Of a DNA stretch of 64,000 bases, positions 10,546-33,688 are shown piece by piece. The DNA comes from Mustelus asterias. Its lineage: Eukaryota. The stretch's first letter is position 1. Each line of letters opens with the position of its first letter. The notes beneath the pieces are model-generated. The model was not told the origin of the DNA. It saw only the letters and a list, made by a program, of their open reading frames with translations, and made no database searches. The stretch spans positions 558,001 through 622,000 of the forward strand of contig NC_135823.1 of NCBI RefSeq assembly GCF_964213995.1, given 5' to 3'. The position numbers and the translations under genes are program-made.

Positions 10546-13500
10546 CTGTGTGTTAATTTCACAATTATGAATTGAAATATCACCCAATCTATATAATCGA
10601 TAATTACATAAAGACATCGTGCGCCAATGGCCACCGATATTTCAGCAGTTTTAATTGGATTTAATAGTGTCACATGTGGGCTTACATTAACACTGCAATG
10701 AAGTTACCGTGAAAATCCCCCACTCTCCGGCGCCTGTTCAGCTGCAATGAGGGAGAATGTAACATCACCAACGCACTGAACTAGCAAATATTTCGGACTG
10801 TGGGAGAAAACAAGAGCATCCGGAGGAAACCCACGCAGACACGGGGAGAACGTGCAGACAGACTCTGCACAGATAGTGACCCAAACCGGGAATTGAACAC
10901 GGATCCTTAACGCTGTGAGGCAGCGGTGCTATCCTCTGTGCCAACGTGCCACCCCAATGTACTGATAGGCCACAATCGTTAACACACAGCCACTTAAATT
11001 TCGCCAAGGCGACAGATCTTCCACTACACTTCAGAGGCAGTGAGATATAGCACTGGAGGCGAAGGGGATCAAAGGATCTGGGTGGAAGCCGTGGTCAGGC
11101 TATTCAGTTTGGTGATCAGCCCGACCATCGTGAATGGCAGAGCAGAATCAAAGGAAGGATGGCCTCCTCCTGCTCCTATTTTGTATGTGTCTATGTTATG
11201 TGGCAAATGCTTGGATGAGGAAAATCTCACAACAGTACTTGTCACTTATTGCCCACCTGGCATACCACTACCTGTATTAATATCAGCAATTTTCCCTTTA
11301 CTGTAACCTTAAGAGTGATTGTTGAACTTGCTGAAGGACAGTGACACCCTGTGGACAGAAATAGTAAGCACACACATTGTGGCGTATTCAATGAAACAAA
11401 GTAGGGGACAGCCATTCCCCGGCTCATTGTTCGGGCCAATGCCTTGACCAATCAGTCAAACGACCTATTTTTAATTTTTCAGCAGGCAGTAAATAAGACA
11501 AGTGATTTGTTGGTCTTCATAGCGACAGGATTGCATAATAGGAATGGGATATTTTACTGGAATTGTATAGGGCGTTCGTGAGAAGTACTGTGTGCAGTTT
11601 TGGTATCCTTATCTGAGGAACGATGTTCCTGCTATAGAGGAAGAACAGCGAAGGTTTACCAGCTAATTCCTGGGATGGCACGTCTGTTATATGAGGAGAG
11701 ACTAAGTCGGTTAATTTTATATTCACTGGAGTTTAGAAGAGTGAGAAGGGATCTCATAAACCTTCGAAAGTTCTGACAGGATTCGATAGGGTAGACTGAG
11801 AAAGAATATTTCCGATGGTGAAGGAGTCCAAAGGAAGGGGTCATAGATTGAGGACACGGGGTAAACGTTTTGTAAATGAGGTGAGGTGAATATTTGGAAT
11901 TCACTGCCACAGAAATGAGTTGAGGACTTAACGTTATGCAATCTCAAGAAGAAATTAGATCGAGCTCCTGGAGCGAAAGGGATCAGAAGATATGGGGGCA
12001 AGACAGAATCAGGATATTGAATTTGATGATTAGCCAGAGCAGGTTCGAAGTGCCGAATGGCGTACTCCTCCTTCTAGTTTCTATGTTAACAAATGTAGGC
12101 AGGTAACTGGCAATCATCAATTAACTGCAGCATTCTCCATAAAACGACTGCAACCAGTCAGAGTCCTTTGGCTCACAGAGTAATATTCTTCTCAGGAAGA
12201 ATGCACAATTGCTCCCTTTATATATGTTATTCTTGTGGGGTTTTTTTTGCTGATGGATACAAGGCCAAAAGCCTCGATGATATGTTTTTTTGCCGGCAAA
12301 ACTCAAGTAGTTCAGTTCTTCAAATTTTCTTTCAAACATGTCTTAGAAGTTAACCGTCAGTACCAATCAACTGGTGCATTCTCCATAGGAACGCCTATAT
12401 CAAATCAACTTCCACTTCAATTCTTTCATTCTGACACTTCATCTCTACCAACAAATCAAAGAAACTTACCCATTGGTCGCCCCTTACGGCCCTCTCCTTG
12501 CCTTCTCTCGCTGAAGCTAAAATTGGATGTGGAAAAAGAACACCAAATAAATGTTAGATCTTGGATATTCTATCTCAGGTGGTGCACAGTGTTGAAAGTA
12601 GTATTGTCCAGTAATCTTATATAAATCATAGAAAATAGAGACTCACACCGCTGGAATCAGGTTGCGAATTGAAACAGGTCTGACAAAACGTAAAACAGAG
12701 AAAGATGGACGATGATGAAATTTGCACATGGTTCTACTCACGTTTCATTGTGGGATCCAATGTCTCTGTCCCCTAAAATAGAAGAACATATGATTAGCTA
12801 ATTAAAATCTCCAAGGAGGAAGTCGTAATGGAGAAACAGGAATTAAAGTGTCCCAGATAATCATGAATCCTCACCTGAACTTCCGTTTTTACAACTCCAA
12901 ATGGAAATAAGGACCAACAGTAGAATCAGTATGACCAGGACAGTAATTCCAACAGAAATCGTCTGTCTGCACCATTCTATAGAGATAAAACACTTAGAAA
13001 TTGCCATCGGTCAAATCATTCCTTCCCGGGGTTCTCTGAAGGGAAACGTGACCCAGTTAAAAAGGTGGAGTGACCAAAGCGGGGAGTGAATGCAGAAAAT
13101 AAAACACAGTTCGTGGGATGGATAGTGGAGAATGAACACACAGAATGGAATTGATGACACAATATTTGCGGAGATGGAGATGAACTAATTAACAACGCTA
13201 TCAGAGTTGTCCAATATTCACAGTGTATCAGTATGTATAATGCCATAAGACCATAAGATATAGGAGCCGAATTAGGACACTTGGCTAATCGAGTCTGCTC
13301 CGCCATTCAATCATGGCTGGTATTTTTCTCAACTACATTCTCCTGCCTTTTCCCATAACCTAGATCCCCTTATTAATCAATAAACGATCGATCGATATCT
13401 TAAAGACACTCAATGACCTGCCCTCCACAGCCTTCTGCGGCAAAGAGTTCCAGAGCTTCACCATTCTCTGGCTGAAGAAATTCAACCTCATCTCTGTTTT

Positions 13501-16500
13501 AAAGGATCTTCACTTAAACCTGTGGTTGTGCCCCCGGTTCCAGCTCTTCCTACTAGTGGAAACATCCCCTCCACGTCCATTCTATCCAGGCCTCGCAGTA
13601 TCCTGTAAGTTTTAATAAGATGCCCCCTCATCCTTCTAGACTCCAACGAGTACAGATCCAGAGCCCCCAACCGTTCCTCATACGACAAGTTATTCATTCC
13701 AGGGATCATTCTTGTGAACTTCCTCTCGACACTTTCCACGGCCAACACATCCTTCCTTAGATATGAAGAAAGCATAATAGAAAAATCTTATTTATGAACA
13801 GAATCATAGAAGGATAATGTCCAGGAAGAATCTAGTCGGCTCATCCTTCCAATTTTCCCTCTTTGATTGTCCCAACTCCAACTCCTCGTATCACCCATGG
13901 TCCTGGAAACTAATGCCCATCAAGTATTTGCTCAATTCTCCTTTTTGGAAATTCCAATTGATCTGTGCACACCATCTTTTCCAGACCCTCGTTCCAGATC
14001 CCTAAACGCCATTGTGTAAAAATAACCATCAGAGCATTGAGTACAGGAGTTGGGGCGTTATGTTACAACTGTACAAGACACCAGGAAGGCCACATCTGGA
14101 GTACTGCGTATAATTCTGGTCGCCCTGCGTCAGGACGGATGCTATTAAACTGGGAACGGTGCACAAAACGATTTACAATGATGTTACCGGGACTGGAAGG
14201 TTTGAATTATAAGCAGAGGCTGGACAAGCTGGGAGCTTTTTTCCTGAGTGTAGGAAGATGAGGGGTGACCTTGTAGAAATGTATAAAATCATGAGATGCA
14301 TAGATAAGGTGAGTAGCCAATGTCTTTTCCTCAGGACAGGGGAGTCCAAACCTAGAGGGGATAGATTTAAAGTGAGAGGGGAAAGATTGGAAAGAGAGGT
14401 GAGGGACAAGTTTTTCCACACAGAGGGTGGTGCATGTTTGGAATGAGCTGCCAGAGGAGGCGGTAGAGGTGGGAAGAATTAAAACATTTAAAAGACATTT
14501 GAACAGGTACCTGGATGGGAAAGGATTAGACGGATATGGGTCAAACGCTGGCAAATTGGACTAGTTCAGATTAGGAAGCCTGGTCAACATAGCTGAGATG
14601 GGCAGAAGGGCCTGTTTCGGTGCTGTATATCTCTCTGACTCGATGTCTCCCTCTCGCTCTTTGTACCAATCATATTCAGTCTCTGCCCCCTTGGTTACTG
14701 ACCCTACTGTCAATGGAAAGGATTCTCAGTTATTTTACTAATCAAATGCTCTCATGTTTGGAACTTCGAATAAATGTCTTAACCTTGATTGCTCGAAGGA
14801 GTACAAGCCCAGCTCCTCCCTTCTCTCCACTTTAACTGAATTCGCTTATTCCCAGTACCACCCTGGTAATTCTGCTTTGTGTCTCCTCCAAGCGTTTGAT
14901 ATTCTTCCCAAAATATGGTGCTCGCAACTGAAGACAATGCTATTAACGTGGCTAACCAATGATTCGAATATATTTAAATTAACGTCCTCGCTTGATTTCT
15001 CAACTTTAAAAGTTCAGGATACATGCTTATTTCTTCAACAGCCTCTTGAGTTTATCCTTCCATGTGCCAAGATTTATGGAATCTCAGAATGATTGCTGCA
15101 CACACGGAAACCATTTAGCTGGTGCTGGAAAGACGGAGGCTGAGGGAGATCTGATAGAAGAAGTTTATAAAATTATGAGAGCCATTGATGAGGTGAAGAG
15201 TTAGAAGCCTTTTCCGGAGGGCAGAAATGACAATTACAAGGGGGCACAATTTCAAAGTAAGGGGGAAATGTTTAGTGGAGATGTGCGGGGGAAGTGTTTT
15301 ACACAGGGGTGGTGAGGCCCTGGAATGCACTGCGATATGAGGTGGTTGAGGCAGACACGTTAGCGACATTTAAGACGTATTTGGATAGACACATGATCGT
15401 GGGTGGGCCGGGGGGGGGGGGGGGGGGAGGGGGGGCGGGGGGGGGGGGGGGGTGAGGGATACAGGCGGTTGGTCTAGATAGTACAACGTGATCCGTGCAT
15501 GTTGATGGACCGAAGGGTAGTTTCTGTGCTGTACTATTCTTTGTTGCTTGATATCTGCACTACAGGTCTGCAAGAACAACTAAGTCACATTCCTCTAACA
15601 TTCCCCTCGACCTTGCTTTTTTTACCCAACCCATTTAATTATCCAATTCGCTGTGGGCAGCCTCGAGTGATTGGGCCTCCAGTGCAGTTCCAGATACCGC
15701 ATTTCACATCCTCACCATTCGCTGCGCATTAAATGGCAGAATGAAAAAAGATGAAGTGGAAGTTAATTGGTGGAGGCGTTGCCATGGGCACCAGTGGAAA
15801 TGGTCGAGAGCTTTAGGTTTCTAGGTGTTCACATTACCAACAACCTTCCCTGGTCTCTCCACGCCGACGCTATAGTTAAGAAAGTCCACCAATGCCTTCA
15901 CTTTCTCAACAGTTGAAGGAAATTTGGACTTTCCGTTACGCCTCTCACCAATTTTCACAGATGCAGTATAGAAAACATCCTTTAGGGATGTATCACAGCA
16001 TGGTATGGCTCCTGCTCTATCCAAGTCCACAAGAATCTACAATGGGTTGTGAACGAAGTCCAATCCTATCACGCAAACCTGCCTCCCATCCATTGACTCC
16101 ATCTACACTTCCCACTGCCTCGGAAAAGCGGCCACCATCATCAAGAACCCCATTCTCCCCGGACATTCTCTCTTCCACCTTCTTCCGTAGGGAAAAATAA
16201 ATAAAATTTTGAGGTGACGTATCAATCCACTCAAGAACAGCTTCTTCCTTGCTGCATCAGACTTTTGAATGGAATTACCATATATTAAGTTGATCATTCT
16301 CGACATGTTAGCTATGACTGTAGCACGAGATTCTACACACTCCACTTTCCTTTTCCCCATGTACTCTATAAATGTGTGCTTTGTCTGTGTAGCACGCAAT
16401 ATACAATACTTTTCACTGCATCCCAATACATGTGACAATAATAAATCAAATCTATATACTCTATGAACGGTATGCTTTGTCTCTATATCGTGCAAGATAC

Positions 16501-19500
16501 AAAACTTTTCACTGTATCCCAATACATGTGACAATAATAAATCAAATCAAATCTATGTCCTCTACAAGCGGTATGCTTTGTTTGTATAGCGCACAAGAAA
16601 CAACAATTTTCACTGTGTCCCAACACATGTGACAATAATAAAGCAAATCAAATCTATGTCCTCTCCAAGCGGTCTGCTTTGTCTGTATAGCGCACAAGAA
16701 ACAACAATTTTCACTGTGTCCCAATACATGTCACAATAATAAAGCAAATCACATCTATGTACTCAATAAACGGTATGCTTTGTCTGTATAGCGCGCAACA
16801 AACAACACTTTTCAATTTATCCCAATACATGTGACAGTAATAAATCAAATCAAATCTATGTACTCTATAAACGGTATGCTTTCTCTGTGTAGCGCTCAAG
16901 AAACAATACTTTTCACGGTATCCTAATACATGTGACAATAACAAATCAAATCAAATCTATGTACTCTATAAACAGTATGCGTTGTCTGTATAGCGCACAA
17001 GAAACAATACTTTCCACAGTAGCCCAATACATGTGAAAATAATAAATCAAATCAAGTCAAATCAAGTCGATGGGGACTGACATTTCACGGTCATTCATGC
17101 CGCCATTGTTTCTTTTGCCAATCTATTTAAGTTGATGCCCCCTGGTTCTTGGCCCTCTCCGCCTTTGAGAATCGTTTCATCTTCGCTGCTCTGTCCAGAT
17201 AATTCACGATTTTCGCCACACTTCTCACATCTCCTCTTACCCTTCAGCTATTTCAGCAAACCAGCCCTCGCTTGTCAACGCTGTCCAGTTGACTGTAGTT
17301 CCTCATCTTTATGACCATTTAGTGAATTTTTTTTCTGCACTCTCTTCATATTTCTCATAAATAGTGGTGCTATTAACTGAACACAGTTAAGACAGAATCA
17401 GAATTCTACAAATGTTTAGCTGTTGATTTGATGTATCATTATTGTCACATCTATTGGTATGGAGTGAAACGTATTGTTTCTTGTGCACTATGCATACAAC
17501 ACATACATTTCAGAGCGTACATCGATTTGATTTGATTTGGTTTGATTTATTGTTGTCACACCTTTTGGGATACAGTGAAAAACATTCCCTCTTTCGCGCT
17601 ACAGAGACAAAACATACCGTTCATAGAGTACATAGGGGATAAATAAATGAGAGGATGCAGAATATATTGTCACCTTCATAGCGAGGGAGTAGAGGAAGAT
17701 CAGCTTGATATAAGGTAAAAGCAAAATACTGCGGATGCTGGAATCTGACAGAAAAATAGAAAATACTGGAAAATCTCAGCAGGTCTGAGGGGACAGAATA
17801 GAACCAAAGTTTCGAGTCTAGATGACTTTTAGTCAGAGCTTTGAAGAAGGGTCATCCAGACTCGAAATGGTGGCTCAATTCTCTACTCACAGATAGCGTC
17901 AGACTTTCTGAAATTTTCCATCATTTTCTGGTTTGGTACAAAGTATATCCATTCAAACGTCTGATGGCAGCCAGGGAGAAGCTGTTCTTGAGTCAAACTT
18001 TTGTAACTATTTCCCGACGAAAGAAGGTGGAAGAGATAATGTCCTCGATTATGCTGGCAGCTTTTCTAAGGCAGCGAGAAGTGTCGACTTGCTTCACTCC
18101 TTTTCGATTCTGTGACTCGATTTCGAAATCTCTGGATCTTCTGTGCTTTCCTAACAGCCTGTCATCTCCAATGATTTCCAGGTGACAGCATGGTCGTGCA
18201 GTGGTTAGCAGTGCTGCCTCACAGCGCCAGGGAACCACGTTCGATTCCCGCCTTGGGTCCCTGTCCGTGTGCTGTTAGCACATTTCCCCCCTCTCTCCAT
18301 GTCTTTCCTTCGGGTGCTCTGCTTTCCTCCCACAGTCCAAAGATGGGCAGGTTAGTTGGATTGGGCATACTAAATTGCCCCTTAGTATCCATCAATGTGT
18401 GATCTAATTGGATTGGCCAAGCTAAATTGCCCCTTAGTGTGCAGCAATGTGAGGTTTAGATGGACTAGCCATGCTAAATTGCCCCTTAGTTGTCCTGAAT
18501 GCCCATGTTAGGTAGATTTATCGTGCTAAATCGCCCCTCAGTGTCGCAAGATGTGTCGGTTAGAGGGATTTGCGCGTTAAATACGTGGGGTTACGGGGAT
18601 AGGGCCTGGGTAAGATGAGAGTCGGTGAAGACTTGATGAGTTAAATATCCTCCTTCTGCACTGTAGGATTGTATGATTTGTATAGATTCGCGGCCAGGTA
18701 ATTATTTACCGTGTGACGGGAGAGTTGGAATCGTTTCCAACAATCCAAGTTCAATATTTGCTCTTCATTCATGTAAAAGAGAAGCATTGGGGAAGTATCC
18801 ATTCAGCCCATCGAGCTGACTTCCATAAGATCATGGCTGATTAATAATGATATATAAAGTTACTGACATCACGATGCAAAATTTAAATGTATCTTATGTG
18901 TGAGGAGATAGTTACAAATTGATCAATCGGCTTTCTGGAGCAAAGTGAGGTAAATTAATTCACCGCCCTTCTGGGCAAAGATGTTAATTTCACCTCTTGT
19001 CTATAGTCTGTTTGTGAGATGCTTGCAGTGTAGAACTGATCTCACCTCCGTTCCTAGATTAACTTCCCGAAAAGGAAGGTGGGAGTAAATAATAAACTTC
19101 AAAAGGGAAGTCATTTCTTGACATGAAGGAGAAAGTTTGAAAGGGCTATGGGTAAAATGGTGGGCAGAATAGCATCGCTGTTTCGAAGAGCGAGTCTCGG
19201 CATATGGGCTGAATGAGATCTTTCTGAGAATCTTTGAGAATCTCAAAGATTTTTACATGTTTTCAGAAATATAAAGCGAAACGGGGAAGTGTGTATCAAA
19301 CACGAACCTATTCTGGGCAGGTGCAATCCAATGCAGTCTGACATATTTTAACAATTGAACGCACACACACGCTCAGACATATATCGATACACACACGCTG
19401 AGATAAATATTTATCCACACACACATACGCTCAGATATATAACCATATAGAAACGCTCAGATATTTATGTATACACAAATATAGACAAACACGCACCGAT

Positions 19501-21826
19501 ATTTCTCTATTCGTACACATTTACACACACACGCTCAGATATTTATCCATACATGCACATAGACATACAACATGCTCAGATATTTATCTATACACACACA
19601 TAGACACATACTCGGCTCAGATATTTACCTATACACAGACATAGACACACACATGCTCAGATATTTATCTATACACACATGCAAGCTCAGATATATATCT
19701 ATATATACGCGCTCAGTCCTATAACATTATCAACTCACGCTCAGATATTTATCTATATACACACACTCAGATATATAACTATATACACACACAAGCTCAG
19801 ATAGTTATCCGTATATACACGTTCAGATGTATGAGTAGAAATTCCGACGTTCAGATATATATGCATACACAAACGTCTAAGTCTTAGATCACCTACCAAC
19901 AGACTCAAGACAGCTTCTTCCATGCTACCATCAGGCTTTTGAATGGACCTACTTTATAATAAGCTAATCTTTCTCTAAATGCTAGCTATGACTGTAAGAC
20001 TACATACTGCACCCTCTCCTTTCATTCTCCCCTATGGACTCCATGAACGTCATGCTTCGTCTGTATAGTACGCAAGAAACTATACTTTTCACTGTATACT
20101 AATGCATGTACAATAATAAATCAAATGAAATCAAACGCACATACGCTCAGGGATATATNNNNNNNNNNNNNNNNNNNNNNNNNNNNNNNNNNNNNNNNNN
20201 NNNNNNNNNNNNNNNNNNNNNNNNNNNNNNNNNNNNNNNNNNNNNNNNNNNNNNNNNNNNNNNNNNNNNNNNNNNNNNNNNNNNNNNNNNNNNNNNNNNN
20301 NNNNNNNNNNNNNNNNNNNNNNNNNNNNNNGAGGATCTACTGAATTAATCCAATTGCCTCTAAAGTTGAATATAATCCTTCAATGTACAGAGTAGCATCT
20401 CACCTTTCCATTTTTCAGTTGCTTTGGGATTCGACACACTCTTCGTCCAATATTCCCCTGGATACCCCAGTTGAACAATACAAGTGCAGACAGCGCCGCT
20501 TTTCCAGGTTACCCCCGACACCATGACATGACTTCTGATGCTGTAGGTCCCGTCCCCCTCCATTGTCCCGGAATCACTCGATCCTTCAGTGACCATGCCG
20601 GAAATATTCCAGGAAACAGCAATCTGGTTGGAAGAAACTCCACTGACCAAACACACTAAGGGCACGGTATCATTCACATCCAGCTCAGCCGGCGGGACAA
20701 ATACCTGCAAAGCCATCTTGTTGGTGGAACTGTCTGGACAGAGATTTGGACACAGTTACCGATTTATTTATACCAAATGGTATTGTTGTGCACAATCCGA
20801 ATTCATTTCATTTGCTCTCTTACCTCCAACCAGTAGTGTGGGTCCATTCCGGAGCGTTGCATAGCCAGCCTTTTCAGCACAGTAGTAGGAACCCGTGTCA
20901 TTCACCTGGACATTGCGAATTTCCAGTATCAATTCACGCTTGCCTTGACCTTTTTTAGAAATAAACTTACAACCGTTCCCCTGCCAGGATTGGATGTCGA
21001 TTAGTTTCGGGATTTCACCAACTCGTTGTTTGTACCAGCAATAGCGAGCCACCAATTCCACCTCGTATGTGTGGTGACAGGTTAAATTCACCGTCTGGCC
21101 GACTTCAGCTGTCATTGTGAAGGGCCTTTGAGGTAGAGAGGGCTCAGAATCTGTAACTAGGGAGATTATTGACACATTACCACACATTATTTCGACATAG
21201 GAAGCAGCGGTTGAAAAAAAATCGCCTATAAATTAAGAACGATCTCATTAATGTCTTCAAAAGTACTTCCTTAGATTTATGTCCCAATTTGTGTTTTCTT
21301 CGCTTGAAAGGAGAAAACAGAAAAAAAAAACAAAATCCCTTCTAATGATCAATAAGTCGCATTTGCATTGCTGTAGCCAGGCGGCATGGTGGTTGTCACC
21401 ACTGCATCACAGTGCTCGGGACCCGGGTTCAATTCCTGGCTTGGGTCACTGTCTGTGCATGCTCTCCCCGTGTCTGCGTGAGAGTTTCCTCCCAGTCCGA
21501 AAGCTGTGCTGGTTAGGTGCATTGGCCGTGCTAAATTCTCCCTCACTGTGCCCGCATAGGCACGTGAGTGTGGCGACGAGGGGATTTTCACCGTAACTTC
21601 ATTGCAGTGTCGATGGAAAAGTAAAGTTTATTTATTAGTGACAAGTAAGGCTTTCATTAACACTGCAATGAAGTTACTGTGAAATTCCCCTGGAAGCCGG
21701 CTTGTGACACGAATGCTTAAACACTAATTTGGCTGATGGCAATTTAAATGTCTCACCTGGCACATACTCACCATAAACCCACAACAGTTGGGGAATGAGT
21801 GTCAGGGATAAAGATTGTTGGGGCAT
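10313..21826 (-). CDS. Gene A: non-rearranging VJ-C1-TM immunoglobulin-superfamily receptor with ITIM-like tail. Exons 21826-21772, 21156(or 21150)-20824, 20733-20404, 12976-12875, 12772-12742, [12679-12647 optional], 12516-12470, 10545-10496, 10390-10313
   Basis: All introns are GT-AG with compatible phases (1,1,1,1,2,2,1,0) and the spliced frame has no stop. The product reads leader MPQQSLSLTLIPQLLWVY, V, C1, TM, then a tail ending SQGGPLYASLDLFALEKKSKKKNRK*. Confidence 0.85.
10660..10950 (-). mobile_element. HE1-type V-SINE. Other copies at about 9350-9600(+), 21380-21700(+), 22270-22577(-), 31935-32162(-), 40198-40460(+), 40900-41083(-), 52445-52740(+)
   Basis: tRNA-like head followed by the V-domain core TTCTCCCCGTGTCTGCGTGGGTTTCCTCCGG...CCCACAGTCC. 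Confidence 0.85.
11530..12085 (+). mobile_element. CR1 3' fragment in a gene A intron
   Basis: Decayed EYCVQFW / LYSLEFRR-type sequence and CR1 tail. Confidence 0.8.
12470..12772 (-). CDS. Gene A small cytoplasmic exons (12772-12742, 12679-12647, 12516-12470)
   Basis: Each has a pyrimidine-AG acceptor and a gtgagt or gtaagt donor. They read GDRDIGSHNET / PVSIRNLIPAV / FSERRQGEGRKGRPM. The middle exon is symmetric (2-2) and follows only a 62-nt intron, so it is uncertain. Confidence 0.65.
12875..12976 (-). CDS. Gene A exon 4, stalk plus transmembrane helix
   Basis: ctctatag| (E)WCRQTISVGITVLVILILLLVLISIWSCKNGSS G|gtgag; 102 nt, phase 1-1, no charged residue in the helix. Confidence 0.88.
13245..15545. 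mobile_element. Several CR1 3' fragments: about 13245-13765(-), 14030-14640(+), 15125-15545(+)
   Basis: RGDL.E.YKI and FFTQRVV-type motifs with CR1 tails. Confidence 0.8.
15770..17065 (+). mobile_element. Rex1/Babar 3' fragment ending in about 7 tandem copies of a ~101-bp tail unit
   Basis: Units begin near 16359, 16450, 16552, 16653, 16754, 16855, 16956 (TCTATGTACTCTAT...GACAATAATAAATCAAATCAAA). Confidence 0.9.
17440..18085 (-). mobile_element. Rex1/Babar tail fragment interrupted by a Penelope-derived foldback element (about 17716-17935)
   Basis: Rex sequence resumes at about 17948; the insert is an imperfect inverted repeat. Confidence 0.7.
18185..18680 (+). mobile_element. HE1 SINE with about 4 tandem ~60-bp internal units
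   Basis: Repeated GGATTGGCC..GCTAAATTGCCCCTTAGTG. Confidence 0.85.
19360..20158. repeat. ~40-bp minisatellite (ACACACGCTCAGATATTTATCTATAC-like) with an inserted Rex tail (about 19880-20135), running into N gap 20159-20330
   Basis: More than 10 copies of the GCTCAGATAT core. Confidence 0.85.
20404..20733 (-). CDS. Gene A exon 3, C1-set domain
   Basis: Motifs VFVPP, PLVCLVSG, VSWN, DGTYSIRSHVMV and TWKSGAVCTCIV; 330-nt phase 1-1 exon (ctgtccag| ... G|gtgag); 90-nt intron to the V exon. Confidence 0.95.
20824..21156 (-). CDS. Gene A exon 2, V-set domain with joined J-like G strand
   Basis: Motifs GQTVNLTC, CWYKQ, LEIRNVQVNDTGSYYC and LRNGPTLLVG; acceptor ctccctag (alternative in-frame acag at 21150); donor G|gtaag. 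Confidence 0.95.
21772..21826 (-). CDS. Gene A exon 1, leader peptide
   Basis: aaaATG start, MPQQSLSLTLIPQLLWVY, then G|gtgagt phase-1 donor about 600 bp upstream of the V exon. Confidence 0.8.
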
Positions 21827-22579
21827 TTTGCAGAGGTGAGCAATATCTCCCTGTTTCCACTCGCACCAGTTTGTTTTTGCTGAGCTGTCAAGGACTGACC
21901 GGTCCAAGTTAATTGTTGCACTTTCAGAAACTATGACAGGAGGCACAATGGAAAGTATGACACGGTGCTGGGGGCATTGCCCTTCCGAATTCCACATGCA
22001 TTTGACGCACTGTTGTCACCGCCTACGTGTCACAATGGTCAATAGATAGAATATCCACACAGAGCTTGACTAGTTTGTCGTTCCGAGGTAATAACAAGCT
22101 AATCATAGTGGGGATGTATGCTGAATATGTAAGTTAAAGTTTACTTTATTGTCAGGGTGTGAGGTATGGCGCCTTAGTTTAGAAGGATGGGAGCGGGGAT
22201 CTCACTGAAACTGACAGAATACTGAGAAGACTGGGTAGAGTGGACGTGAAAAAGATGTTCACAGTAGAATGGAATAGAATCACCACAGTGCAGAAGGAGA
22301 CAATTTAGTCCATCAAGCCTGCAGTGGTAATAACCCCACCCACGTCATATCCCCGTAACGCCATGTTATACTCCGAGCCCCCTGACACCAAGGGCAATTT
22401 ATCATAGCCAATCCAACTAACCCATACATCTTTGAACTGTGGGACGAAACCGGAGCACGCGCAGGATTCCCATGCAGACACGGGGAGAATGTGCAAGCTC
22501 CACACATCACCCAAGACCTGAATTGAACCCGTGTCCCTGGTGCTGTGAGGCATCAGTGCTAACCACTCTGCCACCGTCC

Positions 22580-24495
22580 ATTCGTAGGAGCGACTAGGCT
22601 CCGAGTGCACAGGTTCAGAGTAAAGAGTTGACCCTTCAGCACCGAGATGAGAAGGAATTCCTTCAGCCAGAGAGTCGTTAATCTGTGGAATTCATTACCA
22701 CAGAAGGCCGTGGAGGCCAATTCATTGAGTGTATTTAAGACAAAGCTAGATTGGTTCTTGATTGGGAAGCGGTTCAAAGGTTTAGGGGGAAAAGGCGGAA
22801 GAATGGGGTTGAGAAACATATCAGACATCGATGGGCAGAATGGCATAATTATGGGCCTTTTTCCTATGGCCTTATGGCTCGGCCAGCATTTATTAACCAT
22901 CTCTATGGGCCGATTGATTGCTGGTGTTTAGTTGTCTTCTTAGAACATACAGCATATATCATAGAAGTGTACAGAACTGGAACAGGCCCCTTGACCCTCG
23001 ATGTTGTGCTGAACATGACAACAAATTAAACTAATCATTTCTACCTGCCCTTGGTCCATATCCCTCTATTTCTTGCATATTCATGCCCTTATCTAAAAGC
23101 CCTTAAACGCCCCTATCGCATCTGCCTCCAACACCATGCCAGACAGCGTGTTCCAGAAACCTACAATCCTCGGTGTAAACAATTTGCTCCTCACATCTCC
23201 TGTGAACTTTCCCCGTCTCACCTTAAGTGCGTGCCGCCTCGTATTTGATATTTCAAATCTGCGAGAAAAAGGATTTTGACTGCCAACACTATCGATGACT
23301 ATCATAATTTTATAGACTTCTTTCAGGTCTCCCCCCAGCCTTCACTGCTCCAGAGCAAATAACTTCTGCACCTTCTCTGTGGCAGTCCATGTGCTCCACC
23401 AAAAGCGCTACATAAGGAGCGAGGTCCACCATTTTGACCTCGCTGTAGCGAAGGAACGGCGATAAATTTCCAACATATTGTCTCTGATTTGGAGGGGAGC
23501 TTGATAGCGATGGTGTCCCCATGCGTCTGCTCTCTTTGTCCTTCTCGGTGAATAAGGTATGGATTTCCAAAGTGAATGACAGGAATATAGATTGAATGTA
23601 ATAGTACACACTATGAGCCATTCTGAAAAGAAATGCTTTATTTTCGCAATTATTGACATAGAAACATAGGCAATATAAGCAAGAGGATCTCTTTGGCTCC
23701 AAGAGCTATTTCTTCTAATTCCTCTAATTCCTTCTAATTACAAACTTGAAATCTTTGGCTTCAACAACTTTCTGTGGTCGTGAATTTCACACATTGGCCA
23801 CTCTCTGGGTGAAGAAATTTCTCTCCACCGAAGTTCTAAATGGTTCACCCCTGATCCTCAAACAATGACCTCTCGTTCTGGACTCCCCCAAAATCAGGAA
23901 CATTCTTTCTGAATCAACCCTGTCTAAACATGTTGGAATTTTATAAGTTACAATGAGATCCCCTCTCACTCTCCTACACTCTGAAGAATGCAATCCTAAC
24001 CGACTTAATCTCTGCTCACATGACGGACCAATTATCCCAGGAATCAGTTTGGTAAACCTTCGCTGTCCTCTCTGTGTTGCAAGGACATCCTTCCCTCAGA
24101 TAAGGACAAAACAAAATTGTACACGACACTCAAGGTTTATTTTTGAAATCACATAACGCTTTGGCCTCAACTACTTTCTGTGGGAGTGAATTCCACACAT
24201 TCACCACCTTCTGGGTGAACAAATTTCCCCTCTTCTCAGTCCGAAAACTGGGACGGCACGGTAGCACAGTGGTGAGCAAGAAGAAATCAAAATCTATGTA
24301 CTCTACGAACGGTGTGTTTTGTCTGGAAATTACGTTGAACGTAATATTTTTCAATGTGTCCCAATACACGTGACAATGATACATCCAATCAATGTACTTT
24401 ATTAACGGTATGTTTTGTCTGTGTACCACCCAAGAAACAATATTTTTCACTGTATCCCAATACATATGACAATCATAAATCAGATCAGGTCAAAT
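22580..24495. mobile_element. Nested CR1 fragments (about 22580-22875 +, 22960-23360 -, 23750-24240 -) and a doubled Rex tail (about 24290-24495 +)
   Basis: RRNSFSQRVVNLWNSLP and RGDLI motifs; Rex tail unit twice. Confidence 0.8.
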
Positions 24496-24933
24496 CAAAT
24501 TCTGCCGATGGTTGAAGTAAATTTCCCCAACTCAGCATTGCATGGAACTAGAACTTTCAGACTGTGGTTACCACTTGATTGAGAGGTTGGGAACAGAGAG
24601 TGAAGACAAAAATATTGCCGGGTTATGGGGAGTATCTTCATCAGTGAAGATTTGAGGTATATTTGTCCTTTGACCATATTTAATAATGGTTCAGATGAAA
24701 GATTAGAGAGTTGTATATTGGTGATTTTGTCAGTTCAGAGGGGATGTGAAGTCGTGGAGGGCGGGAACGATAAGTTCCAAACGGACTCGTACAAGTTGTG
24801 AGCGAGCTGATCTTTTGTGGGGGTCGGGGTGATGTTGGGAGACAGACTTTGTACACTATTCTGTTCCCGTGGTCCTGGAGTAAGTCCAGAAAGTTCTGCG
24901 ATGGAATAATCATGTCTGTCAACAGGTCATAGA

Positions 24934-25462
24934 AAGAAGGCTCACAATATCAGGTTAAAGTCCAACAGGTTTCTTTGGCAGCATGAACTTTCGGAGCGCT
25001 GTTCCTTCATCAGGTGAATGAAAAATTAGTTTCACAAACAGGGCATATATAGACACAAACTCAATTACAAAATAATGGTTGGAAATCAAGTCTTAACAGG
25101 TAATCAAGTCTTTACAGGTGCAGACAATGTGTGAGGAGAGAGGGTTAAGCATAGGTTAAAGAGATGGAAATTGTCTCCAGACAGGACAGTTAGTGAGATG
25201 TTGCAAGCCCAGGCAAATCGTGGGGGTTACAGGTAGTGTGACATGAACCCAAGATCCCGGTTGAGGCCGTCCTCATGAGTGCGGAACTTGGTAATCAGTT
25301 TCTGTTCAGCGATTCTGCGTTGTAGTGTGTCGTGAAGGCCGCCTTGGAGAACGATTACCCGAAGATCAGAGGCTGAATGTCCTTGACTGCTGAAGTGTTC
25401 CCCGACAGGAAGGGAACACTTCTGCCTGGTGATTGTCGAGCGGTGTCCATTCATCCGTTGTC
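24934..25462 (-). mobile_element. Penelope-like element 3' end: GIY-YIG endonuclease C-terminus plus pLTR
   Basis: QRMNGHRSTI...PVGEHFS..GHS..DL...RRIAEQKLITKFRTHEDGLNRD; downstream CTGATGAAGGAACAGCGCTCCGAAA. Confidence 0.9.
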
Positions 25463-26134
25463 GGCCGACATGTGACTCCAGAGCCACAGCAATGTGATTG
25501 ACTCTGAAATGCCTTCCAAGTTTAACTAGAGATGGGCAATAAATGCTGGCTAGCCAACGACGGCCATGTCCCACGAATGAAAGAAATATGTAGCTGAAAG
25601 TTAGCCGATCAAGTCATTAGCAAATTTCTGTTCTGAAGATCTTGTTTTTGGGAAGTCTATTACTGAGTACAAAAGGAGAAACGTCACTGCAGTTCTAAAT
25701 ATGCTTCACTTACTGTAAAGAACCATGAAACATCCTGTGGTCGTGGTTGTTTCGATATTAAGCAGGACGACCAACATCTCACTGAATCAATGACAAACAT
25801 GTCCTGTTGCAGACCGCAGAAAGCAAAAAGTCAGCACTAACTGCTTACACATCAGCCCTTCAATATCTCTGAAATGTACATCTTTCAATTCATAATTTTG
25901 TAGCACAATTGTATAAAACGCAGATCGCAGCTTGGGACCATTCGGCCCATTTGCTCGGTGCTGTTGTTAATGCCCCACGCGTGCTTCATCCTATTTCCTC
26001 TTCCTATCAGCCATTAACATATCCTTCATTCATTTCTCTCTGCTGCCTCTCTCCAACTTTCCAATTGCATTCATTTCCGCCATTCATCTCAATCATTCCC
26101 TGTGATAGTGTGTTCCACCTTGTTCCACTTTCTG

Positions 26135-26530
26135 TTAACCTGCTTCCGTCGGGAAAAAAAGATAGAAAAGTCTCAGAACAGGTAACAAGCGACTCAAGAA
26201 AAGCTTCTTCCCTGCTGCCATCAGACTTTGAATGAACCGACCTTAGGTTAAGCTGATCTTTCTTGACAACCTAGTTATGACTGGAACATTATGTTCTGCA
26301 CCCTCTCCTTTCCTTCACCCCATGTAATCTACGTGCAGTATGCTCTGTCATTATAGCATGCAAGAAACATTTCACTGTTTATCAATAGATGTGACAATAT
26401 TAAATCAAATCTATACACACTATGAACGGAATGGTTTGTCTGTTTAGCGCAAGAAAGGATATTTTTCACTGTATACCAATAATAGATATTCGCTGTGGCA
26501 ATAATAAATCAAATCAATTGGAATCAAATC
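26135..26530 (+). mobile_element. Rex1/Babar tail with doubled terminal unit
   Basis: Homologous to 16200-16550. Confidence 0.8.
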
Positions 26531-26802
26531 ACTCACATTCTCCCTAATCTCCTGAATTTTGTACTGCTTTAACAGGTGACTAGCTTAGATGGTGACCAAT
26601 CCATTAGAAATCCTACGTCTGTACTTTCAACAATTTCATAATTGTAATCGTCTCTTTCCTGTCAACCCTCAATCGTCACTTGTTTTAGAGAGAAGAGCTC
26701 CAGGCTATTCAATGCTCACTGATAGTGAGAAGCTATGAATTCTGCTGTCAATCTTGTGAGGTATTTAGAACAACTGTTCCATTGGCTCTGTATCATTACC
26801 AG

Positions 26803-27113
26803 ATTCGGGACAGCCGTGCTCTGTTCTCCAACAGTGGTCCAATTGATATGGGTAGATATGTGAGGTGTTTTGCAAAATGTGCTCAGTGCGTTGCTGCATT
26901 TGGACCTGCAGTAAACAGGAAAACCACAGAGAGCTTTCGACCTCAATTTTATTTTCTAACACCAATCGTGTATGTATTAATAAACACAGAAAACAGCATT
27001 CACTCTGCATATTTCACACGTCCTTCACAGAGAGGATAAGCGCGTGTTCGCAATGAGATTCGGATTGGCATTCAGAGTCCCACCTATTGGCTCAAGGAGA
27101 ATGAGTTTTCTCG
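26803..27113 (+). pseudogene. Gene B, possible heavily decayed V-domain exon
   Basis: After accag| it reads DSGQPCSVLQ..EVFC..IWTCSKQ..NRVCINKHRKQHSLCIF, and in shifted frames LHREDKRVF and IGSRRMSFL. V-exon length, but with stops and frameshifts. Confidence 0.3.
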
Positions 27114-27499
27114 GGGTCTTTGCATTGTTTCATCTCTTTTGGACACTGAGGGTAAGATATCCTTGATGATTTCAGGTCGAGTGCATAATGCTTTCGATAT
27201 AGTAAATAAGGAAATACTATTTCCACTGAGGGCCAGTAACTGGAGAGACACAGATTGAAGAAAAAGGTACAAGTATCATATCCAGAGCTGGGAAGAATTG
27301 TTTTAAACATATTATTGCCAAATGGAAGCCGCTGCCAAAATGGGCGGTGTAAGCAGATTCAATAGGAAATTTCAAAAGGGGGACTTGACGGGGACACAAG
27401 TTGCAGAGGTATGGGGGAAACAAGAAAAGAGGAAGCGGGACTAATTAGATAAATTTGTCAAAGGTCCAGCAGAGGCACGAATGGCAGAATTGTCTCCAA

Positions 27500-28012: not shown

Positions 28013-28159
28013 AACTGCGCTCTGCGGTGAAATGATTATGCAGTTTGGCATGCACGTTGAATTTGGAACAAAACAAATATTAACGAAGAGGAAAACGTTG
28101 TGTAGCAATCAGTAACAATTAATGAAAAGGATAAAAGCCGAATTAGAATAAGCGAATGC

Positions 28160-28665
28160 CTACAGCGTAGAAATAGGATGTTCAGCCCATCGAACAAGCA
28201 CCAGCAATAATTTCCACATAATTCCTTGTATTTACCCCACTAATCTCCCTGACACTGATGGCAATTGAGCATGTCCAATTCACATAATCTGCATATTTTT
28301 GGACACTAAGGGCCAATGTAGTATGGCCAATCCACCTAACCTGCGCATCTTTGGACAGGAAGGGGGAAATTAGCATGGCCAATCAAGCCAAACTGCACAT
28401 CTTCAGACGCTAAGGGGCAATTTCGCATGGCCATTCCACCTCACCTACAAATCATTGGACTTTAAGGACAATGTAGCATGGCCAATCCACATAGCCTAAA
28501 AGTTTTGGACACTAACAGGCAACTCGCCATGGCCAATTCTCCCAACCTGCACATCTTTGGAGCGTGGGAGAGAACAGGAGCACCCGGAGGAATTACACGT
28601 CAACACGGGGAGGATGTTCAAACTCCACACAGGCACTCGCTCAAGGTTGGAATGGAACTCAAGGC
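28160..28665 (-). mobile_element. HE1 SINE with about 6 tandem ~55-60-bp units
   Basis: Repeated AGCATGGCCAATCCACCTAACCTGCACATCTTTGGAC. Confidence 0.85.
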
Positions 28666-29242
28666 TCGGGTTCAATGTCACCTTTCCCGGGATAAAAGCT
28701 GTGAGCTTTCTCCATTTACAATATGGGCATCTGTAGAGAGGAGGGCTTTTCAGTTAGAACGTTGGAATAAATGATCAACTCTGGATAAAATTTAAGTGCC
28801 CAAAGACAGCAGAGAAGAAGAAAAAAGCATCGAAAACAGAATATATTTTCTGAAAAATGGTGCTTTGTAGAAGTTGTTTAATTTATTAAATTCACAAATA
28901 TCTGGCATTAAGAATCGACTGATGACCATGAAATAATTCTCAATTGCCAGAAAACCCCATGCGGTTCACTGATGTTCTTTAGGCAAGGACATCTGCCGTC
29001 TTTATCTGGTCTGTGCTGTTGATGTCTCCAGAACCACTGCAATGTAGTTGGCTCTCAACTGCTCTCCAAGGGCATTTACGGATGGGTAATTGAAGCTAAC
29101 CAGCCAGTGACGCCCATGTCCCATGAATGAATAATAATAAAAAAGATAGTTCCCATGTGTCCACTCCGGTGTTTCAAACAGATTTACAGGAGAATTGAGT
29201 TGGATTCCGCCTTTAGAATGTGAGCATGAAAACGGCGCAATC

Positions 29243-30545
29243 ATAAGACCATAAGATCATAAGACATAAGAGCAGAATTAGGCCACTCGGCCCATCGAGT
29301 CTGCTCTGCCATTCAATCGTGGCTGACATTTGTCTCATCCTCATTCTCCTGCCTTTTCCCCATATCCCCTGATCCCCTTATTGATCAGGAACTTATCTAT
29401 CTCTATCCTAAAGACATTCAATGACCTGGCCTTCACAGCCTTCTGAGGCAAAGAGTTCCACAGATTCACCACGCTCTGGCTGAACAAATTCCTCCTCATC
29501 TCTGTTTTAATGGATCGGCCCTTTCGCCTGAGGTTGTGCCCTCTGGTTCTAGTTTTTCCTACCAGTGGAAACATTCTCTCCCCGTCCAATCTATCCGGGC
29601 GAAGCAGTATCCTCGAAGTTTCAATAAGGTCCCCCCTCATCCTTCTAAACTCCACCTAGTACAGACCCAGAGTCCGTAACAGTTCCTCATACGATAAACT
29701 GTTCATTTCAGGGATCATTCTTCTGAACCTCCTCTGGATCCTTTTCAATGGCAGCACATCCTTCCCAGGATACGGGGCCCACAACTGCTCATAATACTAC
29801 AAATGCGTCTGACCAGAGCCTTATACAGCCTCAGAAGTACAGCTTTGCTCTTGTATTCTCGCCCTCTCGACATGGATGCTGACATTGCATTTGCCTTCCT
29901 AACTGCCGAATAAACCTGCACGTTAACCTGAAGAGAATCTTGAACAAGGACTCCCAAGTCCCTTTGTGTTTCTGATTTCTAAAGCATTTCCCCATTTAGA
30001 AAATAGTCTATGCCCTCCTTGCTCCTTCCAAAATGCATAACCTGACACTTATCCACATTATGTTCCACCTGCCATGTCTTTGCCCACTCTTCTAACCTGT
30101 CCAAGTCCATCTGCTTCCACCCCTCCACCCTCCCCCCCACGCCCCGCTTCTTCAATACTCCCTGTCCCTCGACATATCTTTGTATCATCTGCAAACTTAG
30201 CAACAGTGTCTTCAGTTCCTTCTTCCAAATCGTTAATGTATATTGTGAAAAGTTGTGGTCACAGCACCGGCCCCTGAGGCACACAGCTAGTCACCGGCTG
30301 CCATCCTGAAAAAGACCCATCTATCCCCACTCTCTGTCTTATGCCAGTCAGCCAATCCTCTATCCATGCCGGGATCTTACCCTTAATACCATGGACTCTC
30401 AATCTATGCGGCACCTTGTCAAAGGCCTAATGCAAATCTAAACAAATCAGGTCCACTGGTTCTCCTTTATCTAACGTCCTTCTTATCCCCTCAAAGAACT
30501 CTAACAGATTTGTCAGACATGACCGTTCCTTGACGAAGCCGTGAC
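29243..30545 (-). mobile_element. CR1 RT and 3' fragment
   Basis: Decayed RT motifs; (CATAAGAC)n tail. Confidence 0.9.
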
Positions 30546-30638
30546 TCTATAAGTCCAATCAATCATTAATCCATCACAGGCTTCTCAAAGTTTCAGCGTT
30601 TCGCATTTTGAAAATGTACTTCCTCTTTTTGTACCCAG

Positions 30639-30846
30639 AGAGCCGTGGACGTTCAGTCAGTGAGATGGCGTTGTGGGCACCGGTGGATTCGTGGATTTGG
30701 GTGACGGGCGGGAAACTTGACGATTTGTTGAAGATTAACCATGATGTTTTGCATAGAGGAGAGGCCTGGAAAGTTGGGGTCACCTCCTGCTGCTTCTATT
30801 GCTTGTGTTCTTCTTTCGGACAGAGGCAATATTGACATTGTTAGTG
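30639..30846 (+). pseudogene. Gene B, internally deleted and frameshifted C1-like exon
   Basis: Strong acceptor tcctctttttgtacccag| and donor G|gttagt. HDVLHRGEAWKVGVTSCCF resembles SHVMVSGVTWKSGAVCTCI of the gene A C1. The 208-nt length breaks frame. Confidence 0.4.
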
Positions 30847-32632
30847 GTTAGTGGCTGATCTGGCGATGTATGAAATTGAAACGTCTGATTACATTCACAG
30901 AGTCACTTCATATCAAACTGCTTAGATGCAATCATTTATTTATCCGTTCATAAACCCCCTCTCTCATTCTCATTTAAATACTTTCATTCGAAATATGTTG
31001 TCTAACTGCCTAGCTGTTTATCTTTGCGCCATTGACGAACCACCACCTCTCTCTACTTCTCTATATTTTCTCTCTCAATCCATGTAATTATGTCCCAGCG
31101 CAGTTTACCCTATTTTTCTCGGTCGGTATGTCTTCTTATCGCACANNNNNNNNNNNNNNNNNNNNNNNNNNNNNNNNNNNNNNNNNNNNNNNNNNNNNNN
31201 NNNNNNNNNNNNNNNNNNNNNNNNNNNNNNNNNNNNNNNNNNNNNNNNNNNNNNNNNNNNNNNNNNNNNNNNNNNNNNNNNNNNNNNNNNNNNNNNNNNN
31301 NNNNNNNNNNNNNNNNNNNNNNNNNNNNNNNNNNNNNNNNNNNNNNNNNNNNNNNNNNNNNNNNNNNNNNNNNNNNNNNNNNNNNNNNTCTCCTTCTATC
31401 TGTATGTCTCTCTCTGTCACTCGCTGTCTCTCTGTTTCTCGCTCTATGTCTTCTTTCTGTCTCTCTATTGATCCCTCTAGTAATCTCTGTATCTCTGCCT
31501 CTCCCTTCTCTCTCATAGTTACATGGTTCTCCATCTAAATATCGACCAATTCCTCTTCATGTATATCGAATGCTCTGCATTGTTTTCTCTCTTTTCTCAT
31601 ATCTCTTTCACGCGATCATGCTGTGCTGATCGATTTCTCTATTTCTGTCCGAGTTGTACCATTTCCTTTAAGATCTCCTCTGCCCACGTTTCTATGTGCG
31701 TCCCTTTTAAACTGAGTTCCATCAAATTTCCGTTCCATTAATGAATATCTCCTGCTGTCGATCTGTCTCTTTATTTATCGTCTTATTTAACGGTTCTCTG
31801 TAAGATCTTCTTCTCTCTCGTTCTCTCCCTCTCTCTCTCTCTCTCGTTCTCTTTGCCGGGCACTTGATTCCTCTCTTCCTCTCTCTCCCTGTCCATGCAA
31901 CTCTCTCCGAATTTAATATAAGCCTTCCTGGAATCATAAAAACCCTAAAGTGCAGGAGGAGGCCATTCGGTCTATTGAGTCTGCACCGACAACAATCTCA
32001 ACCCAGGCCCTATCCCCACAACCCCACACATTTATCCCGCTAATCCCTTCTTCCTACACATCCTGGGACACGATGGGTAATTTAGGATGGCCAATCAACC
32101 TAACCTGCGCATCTTTGGTCTGTGGGAAGAAACTGAAGCACCCGGAGGAAATCCATGCAGACTTTCTTTTCTCTCTGTCAGTCTTTCTTTTCACCCCACT
32201 CTCTGCATCTCCTTCTCTCGCTCGCTCACTCTCTCCCTTTCTCTCTCGCTGTCTTTCTCTCTAACTCTTTCCATTGATTTCTCCTTCTTCTGTCCCAGTT
32301 ACACGGTGCTCCATTTAAACATCCGCCGCTGTCTCTCCATATTCCTGTGGCGCTGTCTCTCGTTTATCTTTCTCCATATTAATTTCACGCGATGATGCTC
32401 GCTCTAATTGTTTCTATTTTTCTATCCAAGTTGAACACTTTTGTATCAGCCCTGCACCGTCAATCTCTCTATTCGTGGCGTGTTTGACCGGATTTCCACT
32501 AATATTCCGTTATATCACACTTAAACACAAATAAAAACGTGGACAGAGATCTTAAAGAAAATGGTGGAACTCGGGTGGAAATAGAGAAATAGATCAGAAC
32601 AGCATGATCACGTGAAAGAGATATGAGATATA

Positions 32633-32636
<4 letters not shown>

Positions 32637-32702
<66 letters not shown>
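32637..32702. repeat. (TA)n microsatellite followed by a CR1 3' fragment (about 32715-33265 +)
   Basis: About 33 TA units; HLEYCAQFWSPHYRKD downstream. Confidence 0.95.
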
Positions 32703-32706
<4 letters not shown>

Positions 32707-33568
32707 TATATATCTCACTCGTCAGACCCCACTTGGAGTACTGTGCTCAGTTCTGGTCGCCTCATTACAGGAAGGATGTGGAAAAGATTGAAAGTTTACA
32801 GAGGCGACTTACAAGGATGTTGCCTGGATTGAGTGGCATGCCTTATGAGGATAGGCTGAGGGAGCTCGGTCTTTTCTCCTTGGAGAGACGTAGGATGAGA
32901 GGAGACCAAATAGAGGTATATAAGAAGTTGAGAGGCATAGATCGGGTGGACTCTCAGAGGCTTTTTCCCAGGGTGGAAATGGCTGCTACGTGAGGACACA
33001 GGTTTAAGGTGCTGGGGTGCAGGTACAGGGGAAATGTTAGGGGAAAGTTTTTCACACAGATGGTGGTGGGTGCGTGGAATTGGCTGCCACCAGTGGTGGT
33101 GGAGGCAAACTCAATAGGGTTTTTAAAGAGACTCCTGGATGAGTACATGGGACTTAATAGGATGGAGGGTTATAGGTAGGCCTAAAAAGTAGGGATGTGT
33201 TCGGCACAACTTGTGGGGCCGAAGGGCCTGTTTTGTGCTGCAGTTTGCTATGCTTCTATGTTTCTATATCTCGGATGTCTCCTTCTGTCAATCAATCTAT
33301 TTATTTATATCTCTGTTATTCTAAATGTTCTCTATAAGAGCTCTGTCAATTATCTCCCTCTCTCTCCCTCTCTCACCCCACCACCCCACCTCGTGTCCTG
33401 TTGAAAAAGTGGTATTTAGGATCTCTGCTCTAATAATGATAGTCTCATAGACAAAACTGATTTCTGTTTTCGGGTGAAATCAGGCAGGCAGAGTTGAGAA
33501 AATTCTCCACTTGTTTAATCATTTCCACAATTCATTATTTTAACTAAAAGTTATTTTTCCTTTTGCAG

Positions 33569-33688
33569 ATTCTCCGCTCCCGACCAATTGCACTTTCCTG
33601 CTTTCCAGGGCTGTGACGATGGCGACACTTCTCCTTCTGGGATTGCTTCTTGTGGCCGCAAGAAGGGGCTTCAGGAACCGGCAGAGAG
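33569..33688 (+). pseudogene. Gene B, stalk plus TM exon with intramembrane Arg (activating-type)
   Basis: ttttccttttgcag| (D)SPLPTNCTFLLSRAVTMATLLLLGLLLVAARRGFRNRQR G|gtagcg; 120 nt, phase 1-1, open. Confidence 0.7.

What the first reader, a model, noticed from the sequence alone, without database searches (positions are those of the whole stretch)
12875..33688. Head-to-head A/B pair, both with a membrane-proximal cysteine: a TCR-like disulfide-linked heterodimer?
Seen: gene A (minus, ATG 21826) and relic B (plus, from about 26800) diverge from a ~5-kb interval. Both TM exons carry a stalk Cys (EWCRQ; PTNCTF), and C has several. Established: TCR chains, CD8 and CD79 dimerise through extracellular cysteines. 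Inference: the ancestral unit may be two co-regulated VJ-C1 chains forming a non-rearranging two-chain receptor, one bearing the adaptor-binding Arg.
Basis: inference. Interest (0 to 1): 0.7.

Follow-up and report, generated by a model that had tools for sequence, protein, structure and literature searches.

The report
Shark non-rearranging paired immune receptors
An intact shark gene for an antibody-shaped, non-rearranging surface receptor that likely dampens immune cells sits back to back with a dead relative; both gene types keep a cysteine that likely links two chains, but the back-to-back layout is likely a local rearrangement and the membrane arginine likely marks activating variants, not one half of a T-cell-receptor-like pair.

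Summary
Both stalk cysteines and the divergent layout are real. Gene A is an intact 341-aa leader-VJ-C1-TM receptor with a neutral TM and a tail tyrosine motif outside the finding's bounds. B has lost V and C1 by deletion and has a frameshifted leader. No gene C was found. They lie in a cluster of about 48 copies in which A and B types alternate (37 of 47 neighbours). The types probably split before sharks and bony vertebrates did, and the cysteine is nearly invariant, so disulfide-linked dimers are likely and A:B pairing is plausible. Head-to-head layout is not enriched (8 of 37 A-B neighbours), and A's closest paralogues lack it. The arginine is not ancestral in B (2 of 27 database B chains). 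In both types it goes with loss of the tyrosine motif (motif in 1 of 11 with Arg, 60 of 67 without), and four shark A chains show the FcR-gamma-type NxxR. Best reading: a paired inhibitory/activating family, probably PRARP (paper not held). The scan reached similar readings on other sharks and one neighbouring window.

The parts
21772..21826 (-). Gene A leader exon, ATG at 21826
   Evidence: leader-to-V joint seen in contigs of a relative
20824..21156 (-). Gene A single-exon V domain running through the J-like G strand (NGPTLLV; canonical FGxG absent)
   Evidence: Pfam V-set E 7e-12
20404..20733 (-). Gene A C1-set exon
   Evidence: Pfam C1-set E 4e-11; V-to-C1 joint
12875..12976 (-). Gene A stalk and TM exon; Cys codon 12971-12969; no charged residue in the TM
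12742..12772 (-). Gene A cytoplasmic exon 1
12470..12516 (-). Gene A cytoplasmic exon 2
10496..10545 (-). Gene A cytoplasmic exon 3
10313..10390 (-). Gene A last exon with ITIM-like PLYASL and stop (outside the finding's bounds)
21827..27100 (.). 5,274-bp interval: about 21930-24280 matches the upstream DNA of A's paralogues, about 25460-27500 matches the upstream DNA of B-type copies; likely a rearrangement junction between
27101..27151 (+). Relic B leader exon, 51 nt and phase 0 (43 nt and phase 1 in intact copies); spliced to the TM exon it would run out of frame
30542..30543 (+). Deletion junction: leader-V intron joined to C1-TM intron, V and C1 lost (about 1.6 kb against the copy at C23:840 kb)
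33569..33688 (+). Relic B stalk and TM exon; Cys 33589-33591; Arg 33607-33609 where most B copies have Gly
33823..33881 (+). Relic B cytoplasmic exon 1 with in-frame TAG at 33846-33848
39254..39298 (+).
45627..45672 (+). Second B-type last exon, frameshifted, in a tail-only fragment (about 43998-56000 matches the 3' end of B genes)

Best explanation
Gene A is an intact member, and B a deleted relic, of a shark cluster of non-rearranging VJ-C1 membrane receptors that likely form disulfide-linked dimers and likely work as a paired inhibitory/activating family. Shown: gene structure, two chain types, conserved stalk Cys, neutral TM plus tail tyrosine motif in most A and B chains, and Arg coupled to loss of that motif. 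Inferred: the stalk Cys links two chains (A:A, B:B or A:B); the default receptor recruits SH2 phosphatases through its ITIM-like (A) or ITSM-like (B) motif; copies with a TM Arg and a cut tail pair with an FcR-gamma or CD3-zeta type adaptor and activate. The window's head-to-head layout is likely a secondary junction at the centre of a local inverted duplication.
For: Intact A frame. Stalk Cys in 23 of 23 A and at the standard place in 16 of 19 B TM exons of this genome, in at least 90% of 35 aligned A chains and 25 of 25 B chains. Tail Yxx[LVI] in 60 of 67 database A and B chains without TM Arg/Lys against 1 of 11 with it. NxxR in 4 of the 9 Arg-bearing A chains (P0008, P0014, P0045, P0046), the motif tied to FcR-gamma association in PMC2413239 (passages). 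A near-identical couple here: B at C23:1,401 kb (Gly, motif intact) and C23:1,451 kb (Arg, mutated acceptor, stop 8 codons after the TM exon), V regions 98.9% identical. A at C23:901 kb has open V and C1, TM Arg, and its motif Tyr changed to a stop. Strands flip at the window: all 12 copies from 81 to 579 kb are minus, the next five plus, with A-B2-B1 mirrored on both sides. No B leader within 10 kb upstream of six close A paralogues.
Against: No dimer or signalling step was tested. The Arg-versus-motif table mixes isoforms, truncated gene models and close relatives, so its p (1.5e-7) overstates the case; 7 of 67 chains without Arg also lack the motif. Several Arg-bearing copies here are pseudogenes, where Gly-to-Arg and stops can be decay; this applies to relic B itself. 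Tails of most A2 copies without Arg were not found in the DNA fetched, so the link is untested there. Shark A's PLYASL is not a strict ITIM (Pro at -2). Divergent pairs are common in the A2 subgroup (7 of 15) and the outlying pair at 3.23-3.27 Mb is divergent with open V exons, so an ancestral divergent unit is not excluded.
Confidence: 0.6

Rival explanations
1. A and B are obligate partners of one disulfide-linked heterodimer, like TCR alpha-beta or CD94/NKG2, encoded ancestrally as a co-regulated divergent pair; signalling sign is set by which variant chain is used.
For: A and B alternate (37 of 47 neighbours, permutation p 1.3e-4). Both types persist from sharks to sturgeon, lungfish, caecilian and reptiles; a shark-only A+B clade was rejected on V+C1 (p-AU 0.029). 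A and B proteins sit on records with equal longest-contig lengths in caecilian, sturgeon and several sharks. Both are spliced in the same four runs. The Cys aligns in A and B. Outlying pair is divergent.
Against: Divergent layout is at chance level (8 of 37) and at most 2 of 9 divergent pairs look open in both genes. Each type carries its own tyrosine motif. Shark A lacks the FGxG bulge. The V-only test did not reject a shark-only clade (p-AU 0.078) and the C1-only tree did not resolve A against B.
Confidence: 0.27
2. One reading: a TCR-like activating two-chain receptor in which B always supplies an adaptor-binding Arg.
For: The relic B has Arg six residues after the Cys; 5 of 19 B copies here do at +6 or +7.
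Against: 25 of 27 database B chains lack it and 24 of those keep a tyrosine motif; the conserved NxxR is in A-type chains; three of the five B3 copies have Gly.
Confidence: 0.05
3. The TM arginines are neutral decay (GGG to AGG) in dying copies; the family is inhibitory only.
For: Many Arg-bearing copies here are broken; the change is one base.
Against: NxxR at the same place in four shark genera; copies with open V and C1 carry Arg and a cut tail.
Confidence: 0.08

Closest known systems
PRARP (Fu et al. 2019, J Immunol 202:1992, PMID 30770416). Only the reference title and two passing mentions were seen; the paper is not held; its content is recalled.
   Same: Recalled: a pair of non-rearranging VJ genes with V-C1 in fish, amphibians and reptiles, ITIM or ITSM tails, forming disulfide-linked homo- or heterodimers. 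Here: two types, VJ-C1-TM, stalk Cys, ITIM-like A and ITSM-like B tails, relatives in the same groups.
   Different: About 48 copies, with Arg-bearing short-tailed variants. Not on the contig that holds all 140 MHC class I matches, whereas PMC10751288 lists PRARP among VJ genes in the MHC. No named PRARP sequence was available to compare.
T-cell receptor chains
   Same: V-C1-stalk Cys-TM layout (TCR features from established knowledge).
   Different: No rearrangement (single open VJ exon), neutral TM in most chains, long tyrosine-bearing tails, many whole-gene copies. TCR C domains were not in my outgroup set.
UrIg and UrIg2 (PMC12227049, parts 1-3 of 8 read)
   Same: Non-rearranging elasmobranch VJ-C1 genes forming disulfide-linked homodimers.
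   Different: UrIg has three C1 domains and is secreted; UrIg2 has nine C1 domains in nurse shark. Here one C1, a TM and signalling tails.
Paired receptors with FcR-gamma-binding TMs: LILRA2, PIR-A, NKp46, GPVI, OSCAR, Fc-alpha-R, Xenopus XFL (PMC2413239, passages); KLRI1/2 and NKG2 (PMC3210942, passages)
   Same: Inhibitory members with neutral TM and tyrosine tails; activating members with N-terminal TM Arg (NxxR), short tails and near-identical binding domains.
   Different: Those use other ectodomains; here it is an antigen-receptor-like VJ-C1 with a stalk Cys.

Membership tests
PRARP (features recalled) | Germline-joined single-exon VJ domain | tested here: met
   One open V exon through the G strand in A and in intact B with FGNG
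PRARP (features recalled) | V-C1-TM architecture | tested here: met
PRARP (features recalled) | Two related gene types with ITIM or ITSM tails | tested here: met
   A: LYASL, canonical ILYAHL/VTYASL in bony vertebrates; B: TLYARL, TEYAAV in reptiles
PRARP (features recalled) | Relatives in bony fish, amphibians and reptiles | tested here: met
PRARP (features recalled) | Orthology to the chicken genes by sequence or synteny | not testable with these tools
   No named PRARP sequence; no bird among the 30 representatives looked up by name; papers not held
PRARP (features recalled) | Disulfide-linked homo- or heterodimer | not testable with these tools
   Cys conserved; bond needs a gel
PRARP (as mentioned in PMC10751288) | Location in the MHC | tested here: inconclusive
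   All 140 MHC class I matches are on C8, the cluster is on C23; the passage names no species for PRARP
T-cell receptor | RAG-rearranged V(D)J | tested here: not met
   Unsplit VJ exon
T-cell receptor | Conserved basic TM residues and short tail | tested here: not met
   67 of 78 chains have no Arg/Lys at Cys+5 to +10; most have tyrosine tails
Immunoglobulin light or heavy chains | C1 domain within Ig C clades | tested here: not met
   35 family C1 domains separate from 14 other C1 exons of this genome, support 99/98; outgroup identities judged by appearance
Paired activating/inhibitory receptors | Charged TM residue coupled to loss of tyrosine motif | tested here: met
   1 of 11 against 60 of 67, non-independent rows
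Paired activating/inhibitory receptors | Adaptor association and opposite signals | not testable with these tools
   needs cell assays

The most novel reading that the evidence does not exclude
A and B are the two chains of an ancient, non-rearranging, disulfide-linked VJ-C1 heterodimer kept from sharks to reptiles; sharks expanded both chains into a combinatorial germline repertoire in which swapping in an NxxR-bearing A chain turns an inhibitory receptor into an activating one, a living analogue of the pre-RAG two-chain receptor.
Probability: 0.25. Interest if true: 0.75.

Novelty: new variant of a known kind. Interest (0 to 1): 0.42.

Why it matters
Non-rearranging VJ-C1 genes are the main candidates for relatives of the gene that the RAG transposon split (PMC12227049, PMC10751288). 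A large shark cluster of two old chain types with a shared stalk cysteine and opposite signalling forms gives a testable model of a germline two-chain receptor and a candidate shark NK-like or myeloid receptor system. My eight literature searches found no description of this shark expansion or its activating forms, but the two key papers (Fu 2019, Ohta 2019) are not held and may cover part of it. The window's own pair is weak evidence because B is dead.

Tried and rejected
Complex prediction of A and B ectodomains (P0041 with P0018): verdict 'no answer', score 0.16 against a mark of 0.34, alignments not used, no controls folded; not evidence either way. No run on record as RNA holds the window's own A sequence (no RNA holder listed). 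Gene C sought by motif scan, TM-exon scan and tblastn: not found. MHC linkage: class I is on another contig. Flanking genes: 150 of 317 non-repeated ORFs from 390 kb near the cluster gave two rhodopsin-family GPCR frames and mobile-element pieces, no synteny marker. ESM Atlas with a turtle B chain returned only automatically named V-C1 clusters. Papers on PRARP, VJC1 and UrIg not held; a supplement search of PMC10751288 had no PRARP row. V-only and C1-only trees were weaker than V+C1. Orientation of A and B in other species could not be read, since only proteins were available. The automatic exon caller is rough and marked some stop-free C1 exons as broken.
Full report
Setting. The window is G000:C23:558001-622000 in a 3.7-Gb genome. 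All 12 and 14 named relatives of the A and B V domains are shark proteins with automatic Ig-like names.

Gene A. Eight exons on the minus strand (21826-21772, 21156-20824, 20733-20404, 12976-12875, 12772-12742, 12516-12470, 10545-10496, 10390-10313) have GT-AG sites and give one open frame of 341 aa: leader, V-set, C1-set, stalk Cys, uncharged TM and a tail ending in PLYASL. The V exon runs unsplit through the G strand, so the gene does not rearrange. Contigs of four RNA-like runs of a related organism (one study; RNA is the tool's guess) join leader to V and V to C1 at these sites.

Relic B. Leader (27101-27151) and TM exon (33569-33688) are present; V and C1 are not. Against two paralogues the window joins the leader-V intron to the C1-TM intron at 30542/30543. 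The leader is 51 nt and phase 0 instead of 43 nt and phase 1, and the first tail exon has a stop at 33846. B cannot make a receptor. No gene C was found.

The cluster. From genome searches and exon mapping on fetched DNA I listed by hand 48 units between 77 kb and 1.71 Mb of C23: 23 A-type and 25 B-type, relics included. I fetched only part of this stretch, around the hits. A and B alternate: 37 of 47 neighbours are A-B (permutation p 1.3e-4). Of the 37, 19 are tandem, 10 convergent and 8 divergent (p 0.74 against 25%). In A's own subgroup (labelled by eye) only the window's gene has a head-to-head B, 1 of 8; in the other A subgroup 7 of 15 do. An outlying pair at 3.23-3.27 Mb, left out of the count, is divergent with open V exons. 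The window lies where strands flip, with an A-B2-B1 run mirrored on either side. DNA upstream of A matches six close paralogues only to about 24280, and none showed a B leader in the 10 kb fetched. So this juxtaposition is likely secondary, while an older divergent unit elsewhere is not excluded.

Age of the two types. A profile search found single-V-C1 relatives in lungfish, coelacanth, sturgeon, paddlefish, gar, bowfin, bichir, eel, amphibians and reptiles (30 of 150 looked up by name). In a V+C1 tree of 56 proteins (2 of 58 dropped for lack of the anchor motif) shark A groups with bony-vertebrate A (98/91) and shark B with bony-vertebrate B (97/93). Holding shark A and B together was rejected at p-AU 0.029 (group named after seeing the tree, seven unnamed rows treated as elasmobranch by their place). 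On V alone it was not rejected (0.078); C1 alone did not resolve the types but separated all 35 family domains from 14 other C1 exons of this genome (99/98).

Stalk cysteine. Present in 23 of 23 A and at the standard place in 16 of 19 B TM exons here, in at least 90% of 35 aligned A chains and 25 of 25 B chains, in the same column in A and B. This favours an interchain disulfide but cannot tell homodimer from heterodimer. B-type spliced contigs occur in the same four runs as A-type ones, which shows co-presence in a sample, not in a cell.

The arginine. Among 78 database A and B chains with a detected TM (one dropped), 11 have Arg/Lys five to ten residues after the Cys; 1 of these has a Yxx[LVI] tail against 60 of 67 others. 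Rows include isoforms, cut models and close kin. Arg occurs in 9 of 51 A and 2 of 27 B chains. Four shark A chains have NxxR, the motif that PMC2413239 (passages) links to FcR-gamma association in LILRA2, PIR-A, NKp46, GPVI, OSCAR, Fc-alpha-R and Xenopus XFL. In this genome 3 of 23 A and 5 of 19 B TM exons carry such an Arg; 7 of these 8 show a lesion that removes the tyrosine motif and one (965 kb) was not settled. Several are pseudogenes, and some copies without Arg have also lost the motif. The clearest couple is B at 1,401 kb and 1,451 kb, V regions 98.9% identical, one with Gly and motif, the other with Arg and a short tail; near-identical binding domains in opposing pairs are described in PMC3210942 (passages). 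Relic B has both Arg and an early stop, so it may descend from an activating form or may simply have decayed.

How it likely works. Chains dimerise through the stalk Cys (inferred). Neutral-TM chains such as A signal through tail tyrosines to phosphatases (inferred from motif class). Arg-bearing, short-tailed chains pair with an ITAM adaptor (inferred). Ligand unknown. An obligate A:B heterodimer remains the main rival (0.27).

Comparison. The best match is PRARP. I saw only its reference title and brief mentions (PMC10751288 passages, section 13 and a supplement search; PMC11599192 passages); its features are recalled, and orthology could not be tested. It is not TCR, Ig or UrIg (PMC12227049, parts 1-3 of 8 and passages). 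Earlier unreviewed scan notes reached similar readings on this genome and other sharks; I read them after forming and testing my own reading, and they are not independent support.

Verdict. Observation partly confirmed, interpretation partly supported, interest 0.42.

Noticed in passing
G000:C23:1401497-1407450 and 1451564-1457830 (L063, L065): Near-identical B pair, one with neutral TM and tyrosine motif, one with TM Arg and a cut tail: a ready test pair for opposite signalling.
   Followed up: partly
G000:C23:901466-909030 (L043): A-type gene with open V and C1, two TM arginines, an altered tail acceptor and the motif Tyr changed to a stop.
   Followed up: partly
G000:C23:3229392-3230065 (-) and 3267572-3273574 (+): Outlying divergent B/A pair with open V exons; the A gene's last exon was not found in the DNA fetched. 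A broken B-type copy lies at about 3079 kb.
   Followed up: partly
G000:C73:1877065-1888327 and 4123310-4125555: Further A and B copies on another contig, 2.2 Mb apart, plus a B-type V fragment at 1870545.
   Followed up: no
Database proteins P0119, P0118, P0133, P0140, P0177-P0179, P0189: A third clade of V-C1-TM-tyrosine receptors in coelacanth, lungfish (expanded) and ray-finned fish, with no shark member in my tree.
   Followed up: partly
P0046 against P0033 (catshark): An NxxR TM and a neutral TM appear in very similar A chains labelled as isoforms, which may mean alternative TM exons in one gene.
   Followed up: no
L128:4621-5601 and L124:996-1517: Single-exon rhodopsin-family GPCR frames 30-80 kb beyond the last A gene; no solved-structure match at 1e-8.
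   Followed up: partly
L113:5340-6449: Env-like retroviral frame in the distal flank; observed only.
   Followed up: no
G000:C8: All 140 MHC class I matches, a light-chain-like V/C cluster at 50-51 Mb and single-exon VJ genes at 7.3 and 20.46 Mb share one contig.
   Followed up: no
window 16359-17058: Tandem array of about 100-bp units from the end of a common repeat, inside A's C1-TM intron.
   Followed up: no
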